The notes under the pieces were generated by a model, which worked only from the letters and a program-made list of their open reading frames with translations, ran no database searches and was not told the origin of the DNA. From a virus (taxonomy: Duplodnaviria; Caudoviricetes), in the IMG/VR virus record IMGVR_UViG_3300002835_000169, positions 1,061-65,060 of that record: a stretch of 64,000 nt of DNA. The stretch is one strand, 5' to 3'. Below are positions 8,643 to 64,000 of the stretch, one piece after another (the first letter of the stretch is position 1; each line of letters opens with the position of its first letter). A program made the position numbers and the translations under genes.

Positions 8643-10151
8643 TTAATCTTCTATTGAAGACTGGATAATCTTAGTGACTGTATCTTCTTTTAAGGTCTGA
8701 GGTAACTCTCTCAGAGCTTGAGCTTTGTCTCCAAAGATGGCAGAGAGAACTCCACCAGCACCTTGACGCTGTGCTGTAATCTGAATGAACTCTTTGTCTG
8801 AGGCCATGTCGTTAACTTCTTTAACCATTTTAATTAAGCGGTCAACTTCTTGAGACACGTTTGGGTCTGCGTATCCACCATTCATTTCTTCAGCAAAACG
8901 CATAAAAGCGACTCTTTGACCCTGCATTTCAATCATTGAGGTCATCAAAGCCTTGAGTTGGTCTTTGGTCTTGACTTCAATCGGCAGGTTAAAAGCACAG
9001 GTGTTTTGTGGTTTAAAGGCTGGACAGTTAGCAGCCACAAAGCAAGTGTCACATTGCCTTAAAGATGTTTGCTGGGTCTGTACTACTGGGATGTCCATAA
9101 GAACATCTTTACCGTCTTCATCTGTTTCAACCACGGTCTTCATTTTGTACCCAAAAACAGGTAGGTTCTGAACCTCTGAAGGGTCTCTTTGGACTACTTC
9201 TGGGCGTTCAAGTTTCCGCATCTCAGAAGCACTGTTATCAGAAAGTACCCCCCCTAGTTCCATCAAACCACTCATAAGTGGGGTGTCGCTGTTATCAGAT
9301 ACTTCCTTGTTTTTGCCACCATCAATGATGTGCAAATCAGGGGTTTTCTTGTCCATTGATGCCTCTAACTGTAGGTATGACCAGACCGCAACTCTAGTCG
9401 CTTCAAGGGTGTTATCTTGGCTAAACCCTAAATAGTCTAGCCCTGCCTTCTCTACAATGCGTTTGTAGCGAGGGCGTGCCTGGTCTTTCATACGCTTTGG
9501 GTAACGCTTAATTTGAGCGCCATCCCAGACGATTGTTTCACCTCTGCGCATTGGACTAAGCCACGACAATGTGCTGGCAGTGCTAAATGGTACCTGTCGG
9601 ATGTTGTCTGGCTTGGCACAGGCAAGGGCGTGATACTGAGTTCCAAACTGCCTCTGGTAGCCCCGTGTGAGGGCGGCTAGGCTGGTTACAGCCTCAATCT
9701 CATCATTGGGTATGACTACGTTCTGGTAGGTCTGAGACATTAGTTTAAGGGAAGGAAGCCCATACTCTTCGTGCCAGACTACCCAAAACTTAGGGTCGTG
9801 TTCGTAGAAGTGTCGCTGTGCTTCTACCCATTCTTTACCCAAAACAATGGAGTCAAACTCCATAAAAGCTGATGCTCTCTCAGAGTTATCCACAAGGAAC
9901 TCTTGGTAATCAGCGGCTAAAGAAGTTAATTCTTCTTTTGAGAGCCCTGCTTTGTCAGCTTGAGCTGCACCAGACTCAATGAACACCTGGGTGTCAGCGT
10001 CAAAATGCTCGCTAATCAACCATCTTTTGGTAGTAGGCAACCCTCTTTTGCGAAGAGTCCAAAAGTTGAGTCCCATTGACTCAACCTTTGAGCCGAAAAG
10101 AAGATTGCGATTGGAGCCTACTTCAGCCCCGCTAAAGATGATACGCATCAA
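8643..10151 (-). CDS. TGT/DpdA-like TIM-barrel protein (degenerate) fused to a 4-Cys domain
   Basis: FIESGA ~ FxDSGA, WVVWH, YHAL, PFSTASTLSW ~ SxDSxSW; C-terminal CDTC-x5-C-x8-C. Confidence 0.55.
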   Translation of the reverse strand: MMRIIFSGAEVGSNRNLLFGSKVESMGLNFWTLRKRGLPTTKRWLISEHFDADTQVFIESGAAQADKAGLSKEELTSLAADYQEFLVDNSERASAFMEFDSIVLGKEWVEAQRHFYEHDPKFWVVWHEEYGLPSLKLMSQTYQNVVIPNDEIEAVTSLAALTRGYQRQFGTQYHALACAKPDNIRQVPFSTASTLSWLSPMRRGETIVWDGAQIKRYPKRMKDQARPRYKRIVEKAGLDYLGFSQDNTLEATRVAVWSYLQLEASMDKKTPDLHIIDGGKNKEVSDNSDTPLMSGLMELGGVLSDNSASEMRKLERPEVVQRDPSEVQNLPVFGYKMKTVVETDEDGKDVLMDIPVVQTQQTSLRQCDTCFVAANCPAFKPQNTCAFNLPIEVKTKDQLKALMTSMIEMQGQRVAFMRFAEEMNGGYADPNVSQEVDRLIKMVKEVNDMASDKEFIQITAQRQGAGGVLSAIFGDKAQALRELPQTLKEDTVTKIIQSSIED

Positions 10152-51727: not shown

Positions 51728-51928
51728 CTAAGCTTCTGGGGTCTCAAAAGGGTAATGAGTGCCAGGAACAACGCTCTCTGGTTCGTTTGTTACATCTATA
51801 GTCAATGGCTCACTTAACAAGATTGCAGCTAAGCGCTCATCTGTGTGAAGGATGTCTTGAATAACTCCGTCAATAACAAAAGCAACTTTTTTTGGGGGAA
51901 GTGGACGGTTTGGGTCAAATGGTTCCAT
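51728..51928 (-). CDS. small fibre-associated protein
   Basis: VAFVIDG...AAILLSEP. Confidence 0.65.
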   Translation of the reverse strand: MEPFDPNRPLPPKKVAFVIDGVIQDILHTDERLAAILLSEPLTIDVTNEPESVVPGTHYPFETPEA

Positions 51929-52188
51929 TACTTTGTTTCCTCTTCTGATTGGTCTTCTGTGTAGCTAATCTCTACAGCGGCCCACTTGTCTAGTGGACAA
52001 AATGCATTTGGAAGTTTTACTTTTGACTGCATAAAGCAGCCACATTCTTTACACTGACCTGTTAGTTTTATTAACTTAGGGCAAGCAGAACAGATTTCGT
52101 ACCGTTCTTCTGCAACAGTTGTTTGAACTCTTCCAAGGTTTTTATTGAATAAATCCCAAGGACGTGCATTACGTGGTTTGTTGCTCAT
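51928..52188 (-). CDS. DUF6171-like Cys-rich small protein
   Basis: RYEICSAC...QCKECGCFM..K...CPLDKW. Confidence 0.75.
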   Translation of the reverse strand: MSNKPRNARPWDLFNKNLGRVQTTVAEERYEICSACPKLIKLTGQCKECGCFMQSKVKLPNAFCPLDKWAAVEISYTEDQSEEETK

Positions 52189-55153: not shown

Positions 55154-55804
55154 TTAGCGGGGCAAGTCACGGATTAATTGCTTGTAGGCTATATGCTTCC
55201 CGTAATAGTTTACCTCAAAAGTATCGTCAAAAGCTGACTTAAACCCCTCTGAATGAAGGGCACCGTAAAAGTCTTTACAGGCAGTATCACTTATGGAAGC
55301 TTGTACACAAAAACGCGTTAAGGGGCAAGCCCACTTGTTTAACTTATCAGTTAAATAGTATTCATCTTTCATACTTTTTATAATTATTTCAAGATTTTTT
55401 GAGTTTTTTCCAACAACATAATTACAATTATTATAGTCAAGCGGGGGCATACCTGATTGGCTAGTTGCTAAAAGGTCATGCTCACACTGCAAGGTTTCAA
55501 GCATGTAGTCTAGAGGAACTGTACATACCGAATCCATATCTGCATACGCCCCACCATATTTATAGGTTACTAGGTATCTCCATATATCACCTTGAGTTAT
55601 AGGAGCTAATTTTTCATAGTGAGTATAGAGCACGGGGTCTTCTGTCTTTACGAATTCTGCCCTATCCACATGATTAACGTACCTATACTCCCAGGTTGGA
55701 TTTAAATTTATCCAAGTCTGGGTTACTTGCTTTAAATGTTCTGGCAAATCTTCATATAGGTAGTTATGTGTTTGCCAAATTATCTTAGGAACATCTTTAG
55801 GCAT
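55154..55804 (-). CDS. GT32/DXD glycosyltransferase
   Basis: PKIIWQT, DIWRYLV.YKYGGAYADMD. Confidence 0.9.
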   Translation of the reverse strand: MPKDVPKIIWQTHNYLYEDLPEHLKQVTQTWINLNPTWEYRYVNHVDRAEFVKTEDPVLYTHYEKLAPITQGDIWRYLVTYKYGGAYADMDSVCTVPLDYMLETLQCEHDLLATSQSGMPPLDYNNCNYVVGKNSKNLEIIIKSMKDEYYLTDKLNKWACPLTRFCVQASISDTACKDFYGALHSEGFKSAFDDTFEVNYYGKHIAYKQLIRDLPR

Positions 55805-55810
55805 ACAAGG

Positions 55811-56476
55811 CTAGTACTTACTACTGTTAATATGGCAAATTTCAATCTCATTTATATTAACGTGACTTGGTAGCGACCCTACCCAGTAAATAGCTTCTGC
55901 TAAATCCTCTGCAGTTAAGGCTTGGTCTCGTTTTTGCTCTTGGGTATCAATAGTTGCTGGACAAATTTCTGTAATTTTAATGCCAAATTGTGGGAACTCA
56001 AGTCTCATTGTGTCAATTAAACCGCGTTCACCCCTCTTGGCATTTGTGTAATTTCCTCCACCGCGATACGGCACCTTACCTCCAAAAGAGGTGATAAATA
56101 CAATTGTTGGGGAATCTGACTTTTCCATACACGGCACAAATAATTGAGAAAGGTACATAGGCCCAGATACGTTTATATCGTAGGCTCGTCTAAAGTTATC
56201 CATAGTCTCATTAATAATGTTAGTTGGGCTAGAACCACCACCAGCATTATTAACTAGAAGGTCTAAAGTAATATCCTTATACTTTTCAAAGAAGCCCTCT
56301 ATTGCTTTAGAGTCTGTTACATCTAGGCTGTATACTTCAACGTTGTCAGATACAAGCTCAGATACTTTAGACAGGTTTCTTGAAACAGCAATAACCTTGT
56401 ACCCATTTTCAGATAGACGCTTGACTGTTGCTAGGCCTACGCCCTTACTTGCTCCAGTAACAATTGCTGTTTTCAA
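55811..56476 (-). CDS. short-chain dehydrogenase/reductase
   Basis: TGASKGVG, NNAG, YTNAK. Confidence 0.92.
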   Translation of the reverse strand: MKTAIVTGASKGVGLATVKRLSENGYKVIAVSRNLSKVSELVSDNVEVYSLDVTDSKAIEGFFEKYKDITLDLLVNNAGGGSSPTNIINETMDNFRRAYDINVSGPMYLSQLFVPCMEKSDSPTIVFITSFGGKVPYRGGGNYTNAKRGERGLIDTMRLEFPQFGIKITEICPATIDTQEQKRDQALTAEDLAEAIYWVGSLPSHVNINEIEICHINSSKY

Positions 56477-57232
56477 TTACATACCCTGGTTCTTATTAAG
56501 CTCCATATTGTTATGAATCCAGTGACCAGGAATCATGTATTTAAAACCAGACTTTACAACGTGTGCGGTATGAAAGTATGGGGGAAAGGCTGGGAATATG
56601 ACAACGCTATTTTCTTTTGGCTTTAGTCCAAAATCAATTGCTTTATTTGCAACAGATACGTCGTAGTCCAAGTCTACGGCTGGAGCTGACCCCTTAGAAA
56701 AACCATCAGCGCTAGTCCATCCTCCATCATAATCTTTTAACTGAAAAGAGATTTCGCCGCCTTCACAGTCGTCGTTTAAGTACATTACTAATGAATATCT
56801 TAAGGTCTTATCGCCATCTAGCTGGTCAAAATGTGCGCCCATGCCCATTCCAGTATTGTACTTTTTTATATTAAACGTTGGAAAAAGTCTTGGCTCATCA
56901 AAGTCCCCTAAAGAAGAAGCATAGTCTTTGCAAACGTTATACATTGCAGTCATAACCGCGTCGTATATATACTTACTTTTTTCCGCTACTTTTCCGCTAT
57001 CTGAATCGTAAATGACGCTAAGCCTATTAATTGCATTAATATCAAATGTTTTTGTTTCTCCATAAATAAAGTTTTTATCATTAGAAGCGGTCCAGGTGTC
57101 CCAAACGTTTACGCCTAAGTCTGTGTATTGCTCAAGAGTGTCTAACTCTTTCCAAACCTTTTTAAAGGTATCAAAGTCCTCAATAGCATCTGTATAGTAG
57201 TACGCTTTTGGGTCCAGTATTTCTCTGTTCAT
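56477..57232 (-). CDS. 2OG-Fe(II) oxygenase (P4H-like)
   Basis: HFD...YLNDDCEGGE...H...KY. Confidence 0.9.
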   Translation of the reverse strand: MNREILDPKAYYYTDAIEDFDTFKKVWKELDTLEQYTDLGVNVWDTWTASNDKNFIYGETKTFDINAINRLSVIYDSDSGKVAEKSKYIYDAVMTAMYNVCKDYASSLGDFDEPRLFPTFNIKKYNTGMGMGAHFDQLDGDKTLRYSLVMYLNDDCEGGEISFQLKDYDGGWTSADGFSKGSAPAVDLDYDVSVANKAIDFGLKPKENSVVIFPAFPPYFHTAHVVKSGFKYMIPGHWIHNNMELNKNQGM

Positions 57233-57243
57233 CTGTTTCTCCC

Positions 57244-57903
57244 TTAGTACTTATTTTTTGCGTAATGGTCTTTTTCTTTAATGAACCCAACAAGAACATA
57301 TCGTATTGGTCCATCTCCTACATGCTTGACTCCGTGCTCATACTCTTCGTTTCCTGGAAAAAATAACATAGTTCCTGGCTTAGGTTTTAACTGGATATCA
57401 AGGTTTGGAAAAAATAACTCACCATCTACGTAGTCGTCATTGATGTATACGATGGTGGCATACTTTATAGATGGGTCTGTTTTTTGGTCAGTGTGCGCTT
57501 TTAACTCTACCCCTGCTTGCATTCGTTGAATTGTTGCAAATCCACTTAAAATTAATTCTGGGTCAGCTTTGACCACCATAGAGTTTACAACATCGTATAA
57601 AGGCCTTTGGATTTCATGATGTAGTATGTTAAAGTTTTTATCTTTCCAATTTTGGGTAATCTCAAACTTACCTTCAGCAACCAGATTATCTACATCATCT
57701 CTACCAAATTTTTCCAAACAAAAATACTTTAAGTTTGCGTGGTACTCTACTTCCCAGTCTTCTTGTGACGTACTGTGGATAATCTCCCAAAAAGTGTTTA
57801 TTTGGTCTTGGGATAAAAAGTTCTCAACAGAGAATAGCTCTGGGGTAATATCTGTAACTACGTATCCGCTGTCTATCAACTGTTGTTTAAAAGACTCAAT
57901 CAT
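57244..57903 (-). CDS. 2OG-Fe(II) oxygenase (P4H-like)
   Basis: HTD...YINDDYVDGE...HGV...RY. Confidence 0.9.
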   Translation of the reverse strand: MIESFKQQLIDSGYVVTDITPELFSVENFLSQDQINTFWEIIHSTSQEDWEVEYHANLKYFCLEKFGRDDVDNLVAEGKFEITQNWKDKNFNILHHEIQRPLYDVVNSMVVKADPELILSGFATIQRMQAGVELKAHTDQKTDPSIKYATIVYINDDYVDGELFFPNLDIQLKPKPGTMLFFPGNEEYEHGVKHVGDGPIRYVLVGFIKEKDHYAKNKY

Positions 57904-58651
57904 TTGCAACATCTTCTAGTTTGTACTTATTTCCTGCTGCGTCTAACTTCCAGCCTTGCTTAAGAAGCTCTTGCCACTCTGCTCGTTCAATCTCTTGTTG
58001 CGCTCTAGTAGCCTTCATCTCTTCAGCCCATGCATCTCGCACCTCTTGTGGGTACGCTGACTCTTCTCGGTCATCCCAGAAAGAACCAATGGTGTATCTG
58101 ACACCACCTGTAATAAGAGATACTTCGTGCATATTGTTAAACCCGCCGTCAAATACAGCAAGCAGCCCAACTTCTGGTTTAATCTCTAAGTTTTGTGCTG
58201 GGAACCGTAAAAGCCCACCTTCAAAATCATCGTTTAAGTATAGAAACCCTGCGTAGCGGCTTCTTGTAAACGCACCTGAGTTTCCCTCAGCATCTGTGTT
58301 GTCAGAGTGAATTCTTGCATATGCTCCTGGCTCCCACTTCTGTGTGTGGTACCCAATTTTACAGATTGTTTTTGGGTCAAGGTCGTGGACTGAAGCAATT
58401 GCTTCAGGCATTGCCTTTTCAATATCTGAAAATATAGTTGGAGATAGACCAGCGTCAATAACCTCTTGGTCGTTGTCTTGTGGCAAAACTGAGGAATAGG
58501 ACTCGTAAAATGAAATTGGCATCCAAGAAATTGCCCCATTCTCTGCCTGAGCATCTAGGGCTTGAATCATCTTTTTGCAATCTTCTTTGCTTATGAAGTT
58601 CTCATAAACAACGATGTCTTTTGTTAGTCGTTTTTTGTTTGCTAGGTTCAT
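57896..58651 (-). CDS. 2OG-Fe(II) oxygenase (P4H-like)
   Basis: HSD...YLNDDFEGG...HEV...RY. Confidence 0.9.
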   Translation of the reverse strand: MNLANKKRLTKDIVVYENFISKEDCKKMIQALDAQAENGAISWMPISFYESYSSVLPQDNDQEVIDAGLSPTIFSDIEKAMPEAIASVHDLDPKTICKIGYHTQKWEPGAYARIHSDNTDAEGNSGAFTRSRYAGFLYLNDDFEGGLLRFPAQNLEIKPEVGLLAVFDGGFNNMHEVSLITGGVRYTIGSFWDDREESAYPQEVRDAWAEEMKATRAQQEIERAEWQELLKQGWKLDAAGNKYKLEDVAND

Positions 58652-58667
58652 TGTACTTTTACTCCGT

Positions 58668-59441
58668 TTAGTTATTTAATAGGGATTTATCTCCAGCAAT
58701 TAACTTTTCTATCTCTTGTTGAACAAGGGCATACTCTTCTTCAAATACTTCTGGGGTTCTGCCTTCTCCCATACCCGCAGGGTTTCCCGCAGCTATTAGG
58801 GCTTCTTTTAGTGTCTTTTCAATATCGTAATTTAGTACTGTGCATTGAAACCAGTTAGCTACATACCCATCTCTATCAATAAGGTACTTCTCAAAGTTAC
58901 CGCCCTGCATTGCGCCGTTGCCAAAAGGTTGATTTAACCAAGGTGACAAATAGCCATCTCTGTCTGGAATGCCAAGTTCTCTTTGTTTTTCAGCAAACGC
59001 AAGCATTTGCTCAGCTATTTCTTTGTATAGCTCATGAGTTTCTTTTCTTGGTTGACCTAGTCCGTTTACAGAGTTATCGCCCTTGTAAGGGCTAAGCTCA
59101 GTAGCACTCTCATTTGGGTTTGACGACACCATCTCTGAGAACTTAAACGTGGTTCCGTAGACTTCTTGACCATACTCTTGTGAATCTAAGCCACAGGTAA
59201 TGCCTTCAGACCACTTGCCCTTAGTTACTCCTGGGCCACAATAGTCATTAGTAGGAATTGCAATAACTTGGAAATCATCTCCACCGTACTTATCTTGAAG
59301 CCATTGGAGAACTTCCATTTGATTAGCGTTGCCGCAGCCGACGGTTGTATTCGTCAACAAGGTTACTTTGCCTTTAAATTGACTTAAGAAGTCAGGAGAG
59401 CCCTCAGCTGAGTTAAGAGGGATGTCGTAAATTGATTTCAT
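58668..59441 (-). CDS. glutathione peroxidase-family protein
   Basis: FKGKV.L..N...CG..NQ, IAIPTND, NFEKYLIDRDG. Confidence 0.88.
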   Translation of the reverse strand: MKSIYDIPLNSAEGSPDFLSQFKGKVTLLTNTTVGCGNANQMEVLQWLQDKYGGDDFQVIAIPTNDYCGPGVTKGKWSEGITCGLDSQEYGQEVYGTTFKFSEMVSSNPNESATELSPYKGDNSVNGLGQPRKETHELYKEIAEQMLAFAEKQRELGIPDRDGYLSPWLNQPFGNGAMQGGNFEKYLIDRDGYVANWFQCTVLNYDIEKTLKEALIAAGNPAGMGEGRTPEVFEEEYALVQQEIEKLIAGDKSLLNN

Positions 59442-59462
59442 AGGGTTGATTGTACCTCGTCG

Positions 59463-60143
59463 TTATGGTTGTCTAGGTCCTGTATGCTTTGTTATTTCCC
59501 AAAAGAAAGGGCATGTAAAACGTAAGCCGCTTTTTACCTCAGTAACCCCATGGATGTAGTTTTTGTCACCTGGGAAGAAGTAAGCAGCGCCTTTTTTAGG
59601 CTTAAACTGCACACCCTGTAGTGGGAAATACAGCTCTCCGCCCTCATAGTCATCATTTAAATAAAACAAACTTGATAGGTCATAGTTTGGAAAGTCGTTA
59701 GGTGTTCCAGCGTCGGGGCCCTCGTGGAGCTCTTTATCAGCGTGTGGTTTTTGAAACTGCCCAGGAAGCCATTTAACAATAGTTGTCCCAGTTGGTATAA
59801 CTTCTACCTGGTAGAACTCTTCAATAATTGGTCGTAGTCTTTGAAATAGCCCAGCAATTACTGGAGATATCTTTGGGTCATTTTTATCTAAAGTTGGCTG
59901 AGTTGCGACTCGGTCTTTCCAATAATCTGAGTCGTAGGTAACGGTCCCATTCTCATTTGTATGGCTTTCCGTAACATCCCAAATTGTTAAAGACTTAGCA
60001 GCTTTTTCTAAGAACTCTATCTCTTCTTGGGTCATGAAGTTTTCTAGCTCAACAATCATGTCTTTGCTATCCCCAAACCAGCCTGATGGAGTTATAGATG
60101 GGGTTCTTTTTACTACGGTATACGAATCTTTGTTTTGTTCCAT
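59463..60143 (-). CDS. 2OG-Fe(II) oxygenase (P4H-like)
   Basis: HAD...YLNDDYEGGE...HGV...RF; start 60143 or 60149. Confidence 0.9.
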   Translation of the reverse strand: MEQNKDSYTVVKRTPSITPSGWFGDSKDMIVELENFMTQEEIEFLEKAAKSLTIWDVTESHTNENGTVTYDSDYWKDRVATQPTLDKNDPKISPVIAGLFQRLRPIIEEFYQVEVIPTGTTIVKWLPGQFQKPHADKELHEGPDAGTPNDFPNYDLSSLFYLNDDYEGGELYFPLQGVQFKPKKGAAYFFPGDKNYIHGVTEVKSGLRFTCPFFWEITKHTGPRQP

Positions 60144-60145
60144 GC

Positions 60146-60862
60146 TCATAGTGTATCCCTTTTCGTTTTATCTATTACCCCTAATTTTAGGGTCTTTACT
60201 TCATGAGAGCCTAGGCTTTCTTCTCTTTCGTTTACAGCGTCTCTGTACCAATCTGTCCATTTTCCAGAAGAGTTTACTTTTTGTGCAGCCTCTCCGTAAG
60301 AAATGTTTGCATTTAATCGTTTGCTACCTGGGTCTTGGTACTCAACAACCTCAATGTTTGTTCCATTTAACTTTGACAAAGATATTGGGATAATTGTGGC
60401 AACTGGGGTTCCAGCCTTAATAACTACCCTTTTATTTGCAATCTTTGCCTTGATAGCTAAAGGCAAAGGGTTGTCGTAAAAAGATGTGCTGATTAGGGAC
60501 GACATAGTTTCAAACTCATCACTAAAATAATTTACTGGGTTAATAGTAAAGATACTGACATCTTCATCTGTCCTAAAAACCAGTCCCGTGTTTAAGCTTA
60601 TAGAGGATTGACCTCTACCAGAGTAAGCCCCTTCTGGACTAAACACTTGGACACGGTCTGGTGTTTGGTCGTTTATTCCATCCCAAATAAACTCAATGTC
60701 CTGTAAGCACGATAAACTCCAGCCAATTACATTTGACTGGGTTACTGGAAAACACCTGTAAGCGTGATTCTCTGACGTTGCATCCATCCAGTCTCTTTTA
60801 ATGGGCATAGGTTGGACATCAAAGAGAGCCCCGTGTGTTTTTTCAACTGAGATGTTGAACAT
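60146..60862 (-). CDS. DUF6065-like protein
   Basis: RDWMD...HAYRCFPV..SN..GW...GTPVATIIP. Confidence 0.7.
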   Translation of the reverse strand: MFNISVEKTHGALFDVQPMPIKRDWMDATSENHAYRCFPVTQSNVIGWSLSCLQDIEFIWDGINDQTPDRVQVFSPEGAYSGRGQSSISLNTGLVFRTDEDVSIFTINPVNYFSDEFETMSSLISTSFYDNPLPLAIKAKIANKRVVIKAGTPVATIIPISLSKLNGTNIEVVEYQDPGSKRLNANISYGEAAQKVNSSGKWTDWYRDAVNEREESLGSHEVKTLKLGVIDKTKRDTL

Positions 60863-61518
60863 TAATCTGATTCTGCGCTATACATCTCTGGAGTATGAAA
60901 CTTTTTGCTGTAGTCAAGCATTGTCACAATAGAGTATTTGACGCCAGAAGTCACTGGCATTGCTTGATGTGGGTACATAAAATTTGATGGAAAAATAAAC
61001 AGGTCCCCAGCATCTGCTTTAACCTTTAAGTTCTGTAACCTAAAGTAAAGCTCGCCACCTTCGTAATCATCGTTTGGATACCCAACTAAAGAAACTGTAC
61101 AGTTGTAAGAAAATCCATGGTCATGGTGCTCCATAAAGTGTTGTCCTGGACCATACTTAATGAAGTTGAATGCTTCCCAATACTTTAAATTGTTAATGTT
61201 GTACATTCTGCAGTAGTCTTCAACCGCAGGTAACTTAACGTCATACAAATCTTGCCACAAAGCTTGAAGATTTAAGCTGACCTGACTCTTGTCATTTTCT
61301 ATATCAGTCTTCTTAAATTTAAAGTCGTTGCAGTCTCTGTACTCTGGCATAAGCTGCCTATACCCAACGTACGCTGGTTGCCAAGCATACCCAGTCATAT
61401 CTCCTTCTGGCTTAAGGTTTGCTTCAATTCTACCTATAACATCAATGTCTTTATTGATGACGCCCTTATAGCAAAAGATGCCACTACCTAAATCAACTTT
61501 TTCTGTCCATGTTTGCAT
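60862..61518 (-). CDS. 2OG-Fe(II) oxygenase (P4H-like)
   Basis: HHD...NDDYEGGE...FPSNFMYPH...KY. Confidence 0.9.
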   Translation of the reverse strand: MQTWTEKVDLGSGIFCYKGVINKDIDVIGRIEANLKPEGDMTGYAWQPAYVGYRQLMPEYRDCNDFKFKKTDIENDKSQVSLNLQALWQDLYDVKLPAVEDYCRMYNINNLKYWEAFNFIKYGPGQHFMEHHDHGFSYNCTVSLVGYPNDDYEGGELYFRLQNLKVKADAGDLFIFPSNFMYPHQAMPVTSGVKYSIVTMLDYSKKFHTPEMYSAESD

Positions 61519-61527
61519 TGCATTCTC

Positions 61528-62295
61528 CTATTTGTAGTCTCGTTTTGACCAAACTTTGGTTTGGTATACGCCGCCATCAGGCTGACGGTAAAATTGCATG
61601 TTCTTTACTAATTTATCATACATTGTAGATTGGTCTGGAATGTCTATTTTGTGTTCCCAGTTTTCTCGTTTAAACGGGAGAACCTGCATATACGGAGTTC
61701 CTTCTGGGATGGTACCTTCCCAACCTTCTGGAAGAAAGAATGGAAAAGTTCCAAGTAAGTGAAGCTTGTCTGAGTCTACAACGCCAGTAGTGTTTAGGAA
61801 CGGTAAGTCAAACCTATTCATTGGTGTCATAAACAGTGCGCTGTATCCCTCTGGAAGTTCTAGTCCCCAAGGAGAGCTCCAAGCAAAATGAGTTTGATAG
61901 TATCCTTTTGGATGCTCAAACTGTGGCATTGGGGGCCTTTGGGTACAGAAGTCTTGGTACTTAGGGTTATTGATTTTTACATCTATGATTCCTTGAGTAT
62001 TTTTATAGAAAGTTAAATCGCACGGTGTTTTAAAGATGTACCCAGTTGTAAAGGCGTCCATAATAGCTGGGCACGCTTTCCATGTAGGAATTTTTCCATA
62101 ATCATCTGTTGTACCCTCTTTAGGAAATGGGCAAATTTCTTTTGGAGCTTTGTAATATTCTCCGTTTGGCATTTTTGCAAATCTGTCTGCATTTTTATAC
62201 CAGGCAGGCATTTGCGTCTGTGTCGGTACTGGAACAGAGATATGCTTTTTATCTATCCACGGCCTAAATGACCTAAATATGGCTACTAAAGCCAT
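61528..62295 (-). CDS. DUF6065-related protein
   Basis: TWKACPAIMDAFTTGY...GVVDSD...GTPYMQVLPFKRE. Confidence 0.6.
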   Translation of the reverse strand: MALVAIFRSFRPWIDKKHISVPVPTQTQMPAWYKNADRFAKMPNGEYYKAPKEICPFPKEGTTDDYGKIPTWKACPAIMDAFTTGYIFKTPCDLTFYKNTQGIIDVKINNPKYQDFCTQRPPMPQFEHPKGYYQTHFAWSSPWGLELPEGYSALFMTPMNRFDLPFLNTTGVVDSDKLHLLGTFPFFLPEGWEGTIPEGTPYMQVLPFKRENWEHKIDIPDQSTMYDKLVKNMQFYRQPDGGVYQTKVWSKRDYK

Positions 62296-63002
62296 TACTT
62301 GTGCCCTAACTCGTTAATGTCTGTCATCACAACAACGCAATATTTTGTACCTGAAACCATCGGCAGAGAAGCGTGCTCATAAATATAGTTTGATGGGAAT
62401 ACTGCAATGTCCCCTACTTTTGGCTTATAAACTAAGTTATCAAGTCTTGGGAACTTAAGGTCTCCACCTTCATAATCATCATTAATATAAATAACCGCAG
62501 ATACTGTGCAGTTGTATGCAGGACCGTGGTCTGCGTGAATGTTGAAGTGAGTCCCTGCCCCCTCATACTTTACAAAGTTAAAAGCTTCGTAATATACGAC
62601 GTTAATACCCCAATACCTAGCATAGTCGTCTATACAGTACTTAAGCTTTTGGTATATCTCCTCATGCAAGTCTATAAGTTCAGCGTTTGACTCATCTCTT
62701 GGCCCAAGGTTCTCCTGCTTATACTTAAAATCTACACAGTCTCTTGCCCGCTTAACTGGGACAGCAGATTGTGTAACTTGCGCCTCTGACCACTTATATT
62801 TGTTGCCTGATGATAGATTGGACTCAAGAGTGTTAATGTATCTTGCGGCATCTTCACGTGAGAAAGTGTTTTGGTAGAGGTGTAGTCCCAAACCTAAATT
62901 TTTAACACTTACTTTATCGTCTAGAGCTCTTTCAGGAACTCTATTTGATGCAGTCTCTGACCTATCTTTTGTAAACCAGATATTTTCATTTTCATTGTGC
63001 AT
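62295..63002 (-). CDS. 2OG-Fe(II) oxygenase (P4H-like)
   Basis: HAD...YINDDYEGG...FPSNYIYEH...KY. Confidence 0.9.
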   Translation of the reverse strand: MHNENENIWFTKDRSETASNRVPERALDDKVSVKNLGLGLHLYQNTFSREDAARYINTLESNLSSGNKYKWSEAQVTQSAVPVKRARDCVDFKYKQENLGPRDESNAELIDLHEEIYQKLKYCIDDYARYWGINVVYYEAFNFVKYEGAGTHFNIHADHGPAYNCTVSAVIYINDDYEGGDLKFPRLDNLVYKPKVGDIAVFPSNYIYEHASLPMVSGTKYCVVVMTDINELGHK

Positions 63003-63020
63003 TTTTTGCCTTCCTATAAT

Positions 63021-63266
63021 CTAATTAAGTGACTGTCTTTTCCATTTTCCAATAGGGCATTCTGCATCTGCAAGCGTTGTTTTTAACGGCATAATGCACC
63101 CGCATAGTTTACAGCTTTTTGTAATTTTAATGAGGTTTTCACAAGACATGCATTCATCAAGTCTTTTTTTAATAATCTCCTGGTCATCAAGCTTTTTACC
63201 AGAATCAATTAAGTGCCAAGGCCTTGAGTCTCCAAGAGCCTCTTTCCATTCACTCCATTTAGACAT
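63021..63266 (-). CDS. DUF6171-like Cys-rich small protein (paralogue of 51928..52188)
   Basis: RPW...RLDECMSC...CKLCGCIM..K...CPIGKW. Confidence 0.75.
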   Translation of the reverse strand: MSKWSEWKEALGDSRPWHLIDSGKKLDDQEIIKKRLDECMSCENLIKITKSCKLCGCIMPLKTTLADAECPIGKWKRQSLN

Positions 63267-63269
63267 AGG

Positions 63270-63704
63270 TTACTCTGGAGACGTAAAGGTTGTGCCGTCC
63301 CAGATAGAACCGCGATTAACGGTTTGGCCCTCTGGTACTCTAAGAAGAATAACTTCTTGTGCAAAAGCAGCGGCATTCATCAAATCTGTGTGACCACCTT
63401 TTGGGGATACTGTTGTTAAGAACATGGTGTTATCTACTAGGAAAGAGTACTTTCCCCAGTCAGGGGTATCGTTGTACCTTTCAGGCCTCTCTCCTCCCAC
63501 AAAAGCTTCACCATCCCAAACTGCCCCAGGGTATACATTTTCAATGTCTGTAGTAACCATTGTTGTTATTGGAAGACCGCTATCTAGCGCATTCTCAATG
63601 CGCTGAATTAGAGGGTCCGCATTAGGACTCTCAAGATGCAGCATATTAAAGACTTCGTACGAGTCTTCAGATATTTTTGTTGCAAATACATATGTGTTCA
63701 TCAA
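63270..63704 (-). CDS. fibre-associated protein with internal duplication
   Basis: Two halves ending PGAVWDGEAF / RGSIWDGTTF. Confidence 0.65.
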   Translation of the reverse strand: MMNTYVFATKISEDSYEVFNMLHLESPNADPLIQRIENALDSGLPITTMVTTDIENVYPGAVWDGEAFVGGERPERYNDTPDWGKYSFLVDNTMFLTTVSPKGGHTDLMNAAAFAQEVILLRVPEGQTVNRGSIWDGTTFTSPE

Positions 63705-63742
63705 GTGCTCCTTTTGTAGTTACTTAATAAATATACCATATC

Positions 63743-64000
63743 TTAGAAAGCGCACGAACAACCGCACCCTGCACCGAAGTCATACAGACAGTAGAAACAG
63801 TCTGACCCACAGCCACCAAATGATGGGAAGGATGGTGGGAAGAATGGTGGGAAGAATGGTGGGAAGAATGGGAAGAATGGTGGGAAGAATGGTGGGAAGA
63901 ATGGTGGGAAGAATGGGAAGAATGGTGGGAAGAATGGTGGGAAGAATGGTGGGAAGAATGGGAAGAATGGGAAGAATGGGAAGAATGGTGGGAAGAATGG
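63743..64000 (-). CDS. C-terminus of Pro/Phe-repeat, Cys-tailed protein (partial)
   Basis: 56 consecutive P/F codons then SFPSFGGCGSDCFYCLYDFGAGCGCSCAF-TAA. Confidence 0.8.
   Translation of the reverse strand, partial: PFFPPFFPFFPFFPFFPPFFPPFFPPFFPFFPPFFPPFFPPFFPFFPPFFPPFFPPSFPSFGGCGSDCFYCLYDFGAGCGCSCAF
63823..64000. repeat. mixed 9/12-bp tandem repeat (GGGAAGAAT / GGTGGGAAGAAT)
   Basis: Runs to the window edge; encodes PFF/PPFF on the - strand. Confidence 0.97.

What the first reader, a model, noticed from the sequence alone, without database searches (positions are those of the whole stretch)
55154..64000. Candidate phage-encoded virion-protein maturation system: PFFP-repeat substrate, six P4H-like oxygenases, peroxidase, SDR and glycosyltransferase
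Seen: one co-oriented, tightly packed cluster follows a gene ending in at least 56 pure Pro/Phe residues and a 6-Cys tail. It holds six 2OG-Fe(II) oxygenases, each with an intact HxD...H triad, two DUF6065-like genes, a GPx, an SDR and a GT32 DXD glycosyltransferase. It ends at a second Cys-rich FN3 fibre gene. Known: P4H-type enzymes hydroxylate prolines in PPII-like peptides, and hydroxyproline is a glycosylation acceptor (e.g. plant extensins). Inference: the phage hydroxylates, and possibly oxidises or glycosylates, its own Pro-rich fibre, much like an extensin/collagen pathway. Six divergent paralogues suggest position-specific or sequential chemistry on Pro and/or Phe.
Basis: partly seen in the sequence, partly recalled or inferred. 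Interest (0 to 1): 0.9.

Follow-up and report, generated by a model that had tools for sequence, protein, structure and literature searches.

The report
Phage Pro-Phe fibre with hydroxylase battery
An uncultured lake phage has, among its tail-fibre genes, a protein ending in a long stretch of only proline and phenylalanine, followed directly by six proline-hydroxylase-like enzymes; this pairing recurs in nearly all related phage fragments examined, so the stretch is the likeliest, still untested, target of these enzymes.

Summary
The window ends where its 65-kb viral contig ends, inside a gene whose last 85 codons give 56 pure Pro/Phe residues and a 6-Cys tail. Relatives show the whole gene: two FN3 domains, the Pro/Phe repeat, then the Cys tail.

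Downstream on the same strand lie six PF13640 oxygenases with an intact HxD...H triad. With them are one DUF6065 protein and a distant paralogue (dUTPase-like fold), a divergent GPx-like protein, an SDR and a DXD glycosyltransferase.

- Forward: of 66 repeat-bearing loci with downstream DNA, 57 have the oxygenases next door. Eight of the other nine are explained.
- Reverse: 56 of 56 close and 50 of 50 distant clusters have an aromatic-proline repeat gene just upstream. Controls gave 0 of 5,853 other ORFs.
- The module is 87-98% identical between phages whose sheath and polymerase are 41-55% identical.

The closest solved relatives are protein prolyl hydroxylases. No chemistry, virion location or binding is shown. 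GPx and glycosyltransferase are occasional extras, so a conserved extensin-like glycosylation route is not supported.

This scan has already noted the same system on other DNA (92 findings, at least 70 genomes). My searches of the held library found no paper describing it.

The parts
63743..64000 (-). 3' end of the repeat gene (85 codons): 56 residues of only Pro/Phe, then a 29-residue tail with 6 Cys. The 5' part lies beyond the contig end.
   Evidence: whole gene seen in relatives
63270..63704 (-). 144-aa protein of no known family ('p144'). With the next gene it accompanies Cys-tailed repeat proteins.
   Evidence: no Pfam or PHROG hit; lies between repeat gene and first oxygenase in 28 of 29 Cys-tail loci and 0 of 36 others
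63021..63266 (-). 81-aa Cys-rich DUF6171-like protein
   Evidence: PF19668 23.9 bits (below cut-off 27), phrog_13558 E 2.3e-15
62295..63002 (-). Oxygenase 1, prolyl-hydroxylase-like 2OG-Fe(II) oxygenase
   Evidence: PF13640 42 bits; triad; AF2 pLDDT 84, top Foldseek hits all protein prolyl hydroxylases; profile hit to B. anthracis P4H E 3e-5
61528..62295 (-). Distant DUF6065 paralogue (D65a), start overlaps the stop of oxygenase 1
   Evidence: phrog_7084 E 2e-34; hhalign to the DUF6065 profile 74.8%; nearest Atlas clusters carry DUF6065
60862..61518 (-). Oxygenase 2
   Evidence: PF13640 47.5 bits; triad
60146..60862 (-). DUF6065 protein (D65b), dUTPase-like fold
   Evidence: PF19541 91 bits; AF2 pLDDT 84; dUTPases on top in Foldseek (E 3e-5) and VIA-align (Z up to 11.3)
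59463..60149 (-). Oxygenase 3
   Evidence: PF13640 39.4 bits; best natural profile hits P3H1 (E 1e-5) and B. anthracis P4H
58668..59441 (-). Divergent GPx-like thioredoxin-fold protein (accessory)
   Evidence: PF00255 34.3 bits; NCBIfam far below cut-off; present in 2 of 80 and 6 of 25 loci
57896..58651 (-). Oxygenase 4
   Evidence: PF13640 32.1 bits; profile hits P3H1 (E 5e-6) and B. anthracis P4H (E 9e-6)
57244..57912 (-). Oxygenase 5
   Evidence: PF13640 41.6 bits; triad
56477..57232 (-). Oxygenase 6, with a long insert in the barrel
   Evidence: PF13640 35.1 bits; triad; replaced by another paralogue (42% identity) in L010-L014
55811..56476 (-). Short-chain dehydrogenase/reductase (frequent accessory)
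   Evidence: adh_short E 3e-40; in 18 of 25 long reverse loci
55154..55804 (-). DXD glycosyltransferase (rare accessory)
   Evidence: PF04488 E 2.8e-13; in 1 of 80 and 2 of 25 loci; absent from L010-L016
52199..55075 (-). 958-aa FN3 fibre-like protein with 24 Cys in residues 602-858. It bounds the cluster and has no Pro/Phe repeat.
51928..52188 (-). Second DUF6171 protein, right after the Cys-rich FN3 gene
   Evidence: PF19668 30.9 bits

Best explanation
The cluster is a phage-borne maturation module for the aromatic-proline repeat protein encoded just upstream.

The substrate. That protein belongs to the tail-fibre gene block. It has a conserved N-terminus, two FN3 domains, a Pro/Phe shaft of variable length and an exchangeable C-terminal cap. 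Here the cap is a 6-Cys tail.

The chemistry (inferred). In the infected cell's cytoplasm, the six P4H-like 2OG/Fe(II) oxygenases hydroxylate the repeat. Most likely they act on its prolines. Different paralogues may serve different positions or carbons.

The helpers. The two dUTPase-fold DUF6065 proteins are translationally coupled to the oxygenases and always present. I read them as non-catalytic helpers (scaffold or substrate holder). The SDR, the GPx-like protein and the glycosyltransferase are optional add-ons. The 144-aa protein and the DUF6171 protein serve the Cys tail, not the repeat.

Shown: the gene content, the fold-level kinship to protein prolyl hydroxylases and the genomic coupling. 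Inferred: that the repeat is the substrate, that the reaction is prolyl hydroxylation, that the protein is in the virion, and what the helpers do.
For: (1) Forward test. I examined 80.
- Of 66 loci with at least 1.5 kb downstream of the repeat ORF, 57 have oxygenases on the same strand. In 55 they lie within 1.8 kb.
- The median is 6 oxygenases in the 27 loci with at least 8 kb downstream.
- Eight of the 9 exceptions are explained. Four records hold 6-7 PF13640 genes elsewhere. One shares a contig with a cluster. Two are the upstream second-copy site. One is the second repeat gene that follows the cluster.

(2) Reverse test.
- Starting from DUF6065 relatives at 73-96% identity, 42 of 42 loci with at least 4.5 kb upstream and 14 of 14 with 3-4.5 kb upstream have the repeat ORF upstream.
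- Starting from distant DUF6065 relatives (43-55% to a type II member), 50 of 50 have an aromatic-proline tract ORF upstream. In 44 it lies within 140 bp.
- Controls: such a tract is in 0 of 5,233 opposite-strand ORFs of the same loci and in 0 of 620 other window ORFs.

(3) The pairing survives change.
- Repeat units differ: PFFP, PYFP, PHFP and FF[AS]PPG.
- N-terminal domains differ: FN3 or PASTA.
- Caps differ: Cys tail, Hint-like or other.
- There are three gene orders of the five core genes.
- The 60 Ox1 orthologues fall into 13 clusters at 70% identity.

(4) The module moves between backbones. Cluster proteins are 87-98% identical to those of two complete 101-kb phages, except Ox6 in one of them (42%, a different paralogue). 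The sheath of those phages is 41% identical and the DNA polymerase 55%.

(5) The enzyme family fits.
- All six pass PF13640 and keep the triad.
- Profiles of three orthogroups hit P4H, P3H1 and LH3 best among natural proteins.
- Every listed top Foldseek hit of the Ox1 model is a protein prolyl hydroxylase: PHD2, algal P4H, PBCV-1 vCPH, B. anthracis P4H, Pseudomonas PPHD.

(6) Position. The genes upstream of the repeat gene in L010 are tail-fibre-like. From general knowledge, genes right after a fibre gene are often its assembly factors.

(7) Selection acts on the protein. 70 of 73 repeat stretches mix synonymous Pro codons while staying Pro/aromatic.
Against: - No chemistry has been shown anywhere.
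- The repeat is unlike proven P4H substrates, except the FF[AS]PPG variant with its X-Pro-Gly.
- Six to ten enzymes for a two-letter polymer are more than simple prolyl 4-hydroxylation needs.
- The dUTPase fold of the obligatory DUF6065 partners is unexplained and could point to nucleotides.
- A distantly related array in cyanophage Syn9 has ten dioxygenases plus a dUTPase-fold protein. Its gp43 matches my D65a profile at 28.6 bits. It also follows tail-fibre genes, but Syn9 has no aromatic-proline repeat. There was no match to the DNA pattern in 177 kb, and no Pro/aromatic-rich tract in the 24 of gp32-gp61 that I scanned.
- For PBCV-1, whose P4H works on peptides in vitro, a review states that hydroxyproline could not be detected in virion proteins (PMC7019647, passages).
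- Virion membership is not shown. The repeat protein has no PHROG match.
- One record (38 kb, 26% complete) has a repeat-containing ORF and no PF13640 gene.
- Many loci are related or incomplete fragments, so the counts are not independent events.
Confidence: 0.55

Rival explanations
1. The oxygenases hydroxylate other proteins. Candidates are other virion parts such as the Cys-rich FN3 fibre, or host proteins such as EF-Tu or ribosomal proteins. The repeat gene is then only a neighbour in the same exchangeable fibre module.
For: The best structural matches include PHD2 and the Pseudomonas and B. anthracis enzymes solved with, or described as acting on, EF-Tu. Six divergent paralogues (20-41% identity to Ox1) could mean several targets. 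A second fibre-like gene bounds the cluster in the window.
Against: The FN3 fibre is not conserved next to the cluster; it is absent from L010-L016. The repeat gene was upstream wherever upstream DNA was available (106 of 106). The pairing survives gene-order changes and transfer between backbones. In one lineage two repeat genes bracket the cluster.
Confidence: 0.17
2. The array makes or alters a small molecule or a nucleotide. It could be a secondary metabolite, as proposed for the Syn9 array, or a nucleotide or DNA modification, as the dUTPase fold might suggest. The product could also be attached to the fibre.
For: Iyer et al. 2010 (PMC2938197, passages) read the Syn9 tandem dioxygenases, halogenases and dUTPase-fold protein as secondary-metabolite genes. 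DUF6065 has a dUTPase-like fold. Oxygenase 3 has a weak Tet_JBP match, 21.4 bits against a cut-off of 34.9. An SDR is frequent.
Against: No peptide synthetase, halogenase or nucleotide-metabolism gene lies in the cluster. No AlkB, TET or JBP structure appears among the profile hits or the listed fold hits. DUF6065 has no significant sequence match to any dUTPase: the best is E 0.6, and the D65a profile has none. PF00692 finds nothing in the record. This reading does not explain the strict adjacency to the repeat gene.
Confidence: 0.13
3. The genes are auxiliary metabolic genes of the kind discussed for cyanophages. They would draw down 2-oxoglutarate or repair DNA, with no dedicated phage substrate.
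For: Sullivan et al. 2010 (PMC3037559, passages) proposed such roles for cyanophage 2OG-Fe(II) oxygenases. Oxygenase 2 is about 30% identical to those enzymes.
Against: The cluster lies inside the late fibre module and travels with the repeat gene. The fold neighbours are protein hydroxylases.
Confidence: 0.03

Closest known systems
Chlorovirus PBCV-1 prolyl 4-hydroxylase (vCPH, PDB 5c5t) and Pro-rich repeat peptides
   Same: [quoted passage not shown] 1999, which I did not read). 5c5t is among the fold and profile hits.
   Different: It is a single enzyme in a eukaryotic virus, with no linked substrate gene and no dUTPase-fold partners. Hydroxyproline was not detected in PBCV-1 virions (same passage). 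Here there are six to ten paralogues, always beside one kind of repeat gene, in bacteriophages.
Tandem dioxygenase array of Synechococcus phage Syn9 (gp41-gp54; Iyer, Abhiman, de Souza, Aravind 2010, PMC2938197)
   Same: [quoted passage not shown] It lies directly after tail-fibre and fibre-assembly genes. gp43 matches my D65a profile at 28.6 bits.
   Different: It contains tryptophan halogenases and a JmjC-type member. Its oxygenases barely match the window's: the best is 15 bits with filters off. PF19541 gives no match. The genome has no aromatic-proline repeat. The authors proposed secondary metabolites, not a protein substrate.
Collagen and extensin prolyl hydroxylation (collagen P4H/P3H/LH3, algal P4H, B. 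anthracis P4H)
   Same: Same enzyme family and triad. The substrates are Pro-rich, polyproline-II-type repeats. These are the best solved relatives. One phage lineage has FF[AS]PPG units containing X-Pro-Gly.
   Different: There is no Gly-X-Y or Ser-Pro4 pattern in the window's repeat, and no secretory pathway. The glycosyltransferase step is not conserved. The aromatic residues have no counterpart.
Collagen-like repeats in phage and prophage tail fibres
   Same: These are repetitive Pro-rich shafts of variable length in phage fibre proteins. I saw only the search listing and abstract of PMC3368898; the rest is recalled.
   Different: Those are Gly-X-Y triple helices. As far as I recall they have no dedicated hydroxylases. 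Here the shaft is Pro plus Phe/Tyr, with a dedicated enzyme battery.

Membership tests
P4H-like 2OG-Fe(II) oxygenases (Pfam PF13640) | Score above the family's curated cut-off | tested here: met
   All six score 32.1-47.5 bits against a cut-off of 27. They are the only six matches in the whole record.
P4H-like 2OG-Fe(II) oxygenases (Pfam PF13640) | Fe(II) triad H-x-D...H, and a basic residue for the 2OG C5 carboxylate about 10 residues after the distal His (the position rule is recalled) | tested here: met
   H156, D158 and H210 (Ox1 numbering) are invariant in the six plus a seventh from L010. K or R lies at the +10 position in all.
P4H-like 2OG-Fe(II) oxygenases (Pfam PF13640) | Double-stranded beta-helix fold closest to protein prolyl hydroxylases | tested here: met
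   Ox1 model: pLDDT 84, pTM 0.84. All listed Foldseek hits are protein prolyl hydroxylases, E down to 6e-10, TM 0.5-0.73. Only Ox1 was modelled.
P4H-like 2OG-Fe(II) oxygenases (Pfam PF13640) | Peptidyl-proline hydroxylase activity on a defined substrate | not testable with these tools
   Needs enzyme assays or mass spectrometry.
Extensin/collagen-type hydroxylation-then-glycosylation pathway | A glycosyltransferase that is a conserved partner of the hydroxylases | tested here: not met
   A GT32-like gene is present in the window. It is in only 1 of 80 forward loci and 2 of 25 long reverse loci, and absent from L010-L016.
DUF6065 (Pfam PF19541) | Score above the curated cut-off | tested here: met
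   60146-60862 scores 91.3 bits against 26.6. 61528-62295 has no Pfam hit but is a distant paralogue (hhalign 74.8%, E 2.6e-5; shared phrog_7084).
Trimeric dUTPases (Pfam PF00692) | dUTPase-like beta-barrel fold | tested here: met
   Foldseek top hits are all dUTPases, E 3e-5, TM to target 0.6-0.7. VIA-align gives Z up to 11.3, and 15 chains at Z 8 or more are dUTPases or herpesvirus dUTPase-like proteins.
Trimeric dUTPases (Pfam PF00692) | Sequence membership and conserved catalytic motifs | tested here: not met
   PF00692 finds nothing in the record. The DUF6065 profile's best PDB hit is a WSSV dUTPase at E 0.6, and the D65a profile has no hit at E 10. Motif-by-motif comparison was not done.
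Glutathione peroxidases | Family score, and equivalog-level match | tested here: inconclusive
   Pfam GSHPx scores 34.3 bits against 27, over profile positions 1-96 of 108. The NCBIfam equivalogs score 45 against 270 and 35 against 207. From the sequence, the CG Cys is kept. Two of the four catalytic residues appear changed, judged against a motif I recalled.
Phage tail-fibre / virion proteins | Presence in the virion | not testable with these tools
   Only context: tail-fibre-like genes lie upstream in L010 and the sheath and baseplate genes lie downstream. The repeat protein has no PHROG hit.

The most novel reading that the evidence does not exclude
A mobile phage cassette runs a multi-step oxidation line on a two-letter Pro/Phe polymer. 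Each of the five to ten oxygenases takes a different position or carbon (Pro C3 or C4, perhaps Phe C-beta). The SDR works the products further. Trimeric dUTPase-fold proteins hold the strands. The result would be a chemically new, hydroxyl-rich and possibly cross-linked or adhesive fibre shaft of tunable length. This would be a protein material with no known counterpart, and the first natural substrate for the abundant aquatic-phage 2OG oxygenases.
Probability: 0.25. Interest if true: 0.9.

Novelty: new variant of a known kind. Interest (0 to 1): 0.75.

Why it matters
Aquatic phages carry very many 2OG-Fe(II) oxygenase genes. Their role has been guessed at since about 2007-2010: DNA repair, 2OG drawdown or secondary metabolites (PMC3037559 and PMC2938197, passages). 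No substrate is named in the passages I read.

Here a large family has one obvious candidate substrate encoded next door. At least 2,096 clusters at 90% identity of the DUF6065 partner alone are on record. That makes the question directly testable with a peptide, six enzymes and a mass spectrometer.

If the repeat is modified, this would be a new kind of virion post-translational chemistry and a new fibre material. It would also be an example of a substrate-plus-enzymes cassette that moves between unrelated phage backbones.

The repeat also breaks assemblies. Many contigs, including this one, end inside it, so such genes are systematically truncated in viromes.

Tried and rejected
Searches and scans that gave nothing useful
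- DNA searches of the cluster against 50,697 phage records gave no match, near or distant.
- tblastn of D65b against the same records gave no match.
- D65a matched only haloarchaeal myoviruses at 25-32% identity. In HF1 the gene stands alone without oxygenases, so it told nothing.
- The promoter and terminator scan was at chance level.
- The profile search with the DUF6065 alignment in the 5.8-billion-protein set listed only close relatives among its best 120 of 2,096. The cellular contexts of DUF6065 were therefore not examined. The family 'rings' in Caulobacter vibrioides among the control genomes.
- My six-sequence oxygenase HMM missed the Syn9 enzymes with default filters and scored 15 bits at most with filters off.

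Jobs without an answer
- Complex prediction of Ox1 with residues 196-262 of the L010 repeat protein and Fe(II) gave no answer: score 0.00, controls not run.
- The look-up of sequencing runs listed no RNA holder. 24 DNA runs hold part of the stretch, and the 9 that hold at least half of the sampled words carry freshwater or lake-water labels. I did not lay reads, so I draw nothing from it.

Ideas considered and dropped
- L034 as a counter-example (repeat gene without cluster). Relatives show it is the second repeat gene, which follows the cluster.
- A conserved role for the GPx-like gene and the glycosyltransferase.

Literature
- No paper holds 'DUF6065'.
- Nothing relevant was among the 20 papers listed (of 330 holding a term) for PFFP, PPFF, FFPP or PFFPP.
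- Nothing relevant came up for phage + proline-rich + phenylalanine + repeat + tail fiber + Hint domain.
- Nothing relevant came up for prolyl 4-hydroxylase + phage + hydroxyproline + virion.
- Subscription journals are not covered.
- Supplementary files were not requested. The supplement of PMC2938197 may list the families of the Syn9 genes.

Full report
WHAT IS THERE

The window is bases 1061-65060 of a 65,060-base linear IMG/VR virus record, estimated 65% complete. The finding therefore runs into the end of the contig. The phage is a myovirus with a tail sheath, tape measure, baseplate, family-A DNA polymerase, helicase, ribonucleotide reductase and a DpdA/TGT-like gene. Its sheath is closest to those of Streptomyces phages, at 42-45% identity over 58% of the protein. 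Nothing in 50,697 phage records matches the cluster at the DNA level.

All genes of the finding are on the minus strand and tightly packed. The last 258 bases are a tandem repeat of period 12 and 45 nt. In one frame it reads as 56 residues of only Pro and Phe, followed by 29 residues with six Cys. Two other frames are also open across the repeat. In all ten close relatives, however, the Pro/Phe frame is continuous with a 293-323-residue ORF. L010 shows the full architecture:
- a conserved N-terminus;
- an FN3 match and a second FN3-like stretch;
- about 100 residues of repeat;
- the Cys tail.

The genes before it in L010 are tail-fibre-like.

THE ENZYMES

- Six genes pass Pfam PF13640. They are the only six matches in the record.
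- They are divergent, at 20-41% identity to the first. All keep H-x-D...H, the YxNDD[YF]xGG stretch and a Lys or Arg ten residues after the distal His.
- Profiles built from orthologues of three of them hit protein hydroxylases best among natural solved proteins. These are B. anthracis P4H, prolyl 3-hydroxylase 1, lysyl hydroxylase LH3, PBCV-1 P4H and PiuC, at E 5e-6 to 1e-2. Two designed chlorophyll-binding proteins on top of one list are spurious.
- An AlphaFold2 model of the first oxygenase has pLDDT 84. Its listed Foldseek neighbours are only protein prolyl hydroxylases.
- The two interleaved genes are a DUF6065 protein and a distant paralogue.
- The DUF6065 model (pLDDT 84) has a dUTPase-like fold: Foldseek E 3e-5 and VIA-align Z up to 11.3. 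It has no significant sequence match to dUTPases.
- The GPx-like gene is a weak, partial match.
- The SDR and the DXD glycosyltransferase are clear matches.

THE CO-OCCURRENCE TEST

Forward. A degenerate DNA pattern for the repeat found at least 120 stretches in IMG/VR. I analysed the 80 listed loci.
- Of 66 with at least 1.5 kb downstream of the repeat ORF, 57 have oxygenases on the same strand. In 55 they lie within 1.8 kb, with two DUF6065-type genes in most.
- The nine exceptions:
  - Four records hold 6-7 PF13640 genes elsewhere.
  - One lies on the same contig as a cluster.
  - Two are an upstream second-copy site whose contig ends before the cluster.
  - One (L034) is the second repeat gene. 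In that lineage it follows the cluster, which is bracketed by two repeat genes in 11 loci.
  - One record (38 kb, 26% complete) has none.

Reverse.
- From a DUF6065 alignment, 581 of 598 candidate stretches were relatives. Among the best 80, all 42 loci with at least 4.5 kb upstream and all 14 with 3-4.5 kb upstream have the repeat ORF upstream.
- From an alignment of distant members, 573 of 598 were relatives. I analysed 79 of the best 80. All 50 loci with at least 2.5 kb upstream of the first oxygenase have an aromatic-proline tract ORF upstream, 44 of them within 140 bp.
- Controls: no such tract occurs in 5,233 opposite-strand ORFs of those loci or in 620 other window ORFs.
- Nine loci from 185,579 species genomes are all short MAG contigs of inconsistent taxa, so probably phage. 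All four with upstream DNA (L212, L215, L217, L219) show the same pairing; the other five begin inside the cluster.

IS THIS MORE THAN FROZEN SYNTENY?

- The five core genes occur in three orders, always behind a repeat gene.
- The repeat unit varies between lineages: PFFP/PFF, PYFP, PHFP and FF[AS]PPG.
- The N-terminal domain is FN3 or PASTA. The cap is a Cys tail, a weakly Hint/intein-like domain, or other short ends.
- The 60 Ox1 orthologues form 43 clusters at 90% identity and 13 at 70%.
- Two complete 101-kb phages share cluster proteins at 87-98% identity with the window, apart from Ox6 in one of them (42%). Their sheath is 41% identical and their polymerase 55%. In seven further cluster-bearing records, neither query found a match where tried. 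All seven are incomplete.
- Synonymous Pro codons are mixed in 70 of 73 repeat stretches, so the protein sequence is what is kept.

WHAT IS NOT SUPPORTED

- The GPx-like gene (2 of 80 and 6 of 25 loci) and the glycosyltransferase (1 of 80 and 2 of 25) are occasional. The SDR is frequent (10 of 80 and 18 of 25). A conserved hydroxylate-then-glycosylate route is therefore not supported.
- The 144-aa gene and the DUF6171 gene lie between the repeat gene and the first oxygenase in 28 of 29 Cys-tailed cases and in none of 36 others. They go with the cap, not with the repeat.

WHAT IS KNOWN

- Iyer et al. 2010 (PMC2938197, passages) described the Syn9 array: ten dioxygenases, two halogenases and a dUTPase-fold protein with a conserved Cys. 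They proposed secondary metabolites.
- I find that this array also follows the tail-fibre genes and that gp43 matches the D65a profile. Syn9 has no aromatic-proline repeat. This is the main caveat.
- Sullivan et al. 2010 (PMC3037559, passages) offered 2OG and nitrogen-stress or DNA-repair roles.
- The PBCV-1 enzyme works on peptides, but hydroxyproline was not found in its virions (PMC7019647, passages).
- My searches found no paper on DUF6065 or on such repeats.
- This scan has noted the same system on other DNA: 92 findings in at least 70 genomes. Those notes gave me the Syn9 lead, which I checked myself.

VERDICT

- The core idea, that the oxygenases go with the repeat protein, is strongly supported by comparative genomics.
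- The chemistry, the virion location and the role of the dUTPase-fold partners remain inference. The co-folding job gave no answer.
- I put 0.55 on the repeat being the substrate. Prolyl hydroxylation is the most likely first step.

Noticed in passing
window 63021-63704 and 51728-52188; loci L017-L096: A roughly 120-165-aa protein and/or a small DUF6171 Cys protein follow Cys-capped fibre-type genes. They lie between the repeat gene and the first oxygenase in 28 of 29 Cys-tail cases, 0 of 9 Hint-type and 0 of 27 other cases. The window's Cys-rich FN3 gene is likewise followed by a DUF6171 gene. They look like helpers for the Cys cap (folding, disulfide or metal).
   Followed up: partly
relatives, e.g. 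P0012, P0045, P0110, L219:4990-6627, L238:2974-4332: In many relatives the repeat ends not in a Cys tail but in a roughly 150-aa domain. It starts with Cys and ends in ...HN(K). It has weak Intein_splicing or PT-HINT matches below cut-off, E 3.5e-4 to 7e-3. This suggests a self-cleaving Hedgehog/intein-type cap that would leave the repeat as the new C-terminus.
   Followed up: partly
window 55811-63704 versus records of L010 and L015: The module is 87-98% identical (one paralogue swapped) between phages whose sheath is 41% and polymerase 55% identical. This points to recent exchange of the whole cassette between different phages.
   Followed up: partly
L223, L225-L229, L231, L232, L235-L237: In one lineage two Hint-capped repeat genes bracket the oxygenase cluster: repeat gene, cluster, repeat gene, then a 616-aa protein.
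   Followed up: yes
window 63819-64000 and many IMG/VR contigs: Contigs often begin or end inside the repeat. Examples are the window's own contig, L024, L032, L034, L044, L047, L053, L057, L077 and L221. The repeat breaks assemblies, so these genes are often truncated in viromes. The repeat ran from 20 to 159 residues in the hits, some of them cut by a contig end.
   Followed up: partly
window 61528-62295: The D65a protein has 25-32% identical homologues in 49 haloarchaeal tailed-virus records (HF1, HRTV and HCTV types). In HF1 the gene stands alone next to the structural genes, without oxygenases.
   Followed up: partly
L238-L244, L288, L296, L299-L302, L305, L306, L310: A distant lineage uses a six-residue unit, FF[AS]PPG. 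It contains the X-Pro-Gly motif of collagen-type P4H substrates (motif recalled).
   Followed up: no
window 8643-10151: A 502-aa protein matches the PHROG for queuine tRNA-ribosyltransferase (DpdA/TGT-like), E 1e-60. This suggests a DNA or tRNA base-modification function elsewhere in this phage. It was not examined.
   Followed up: no
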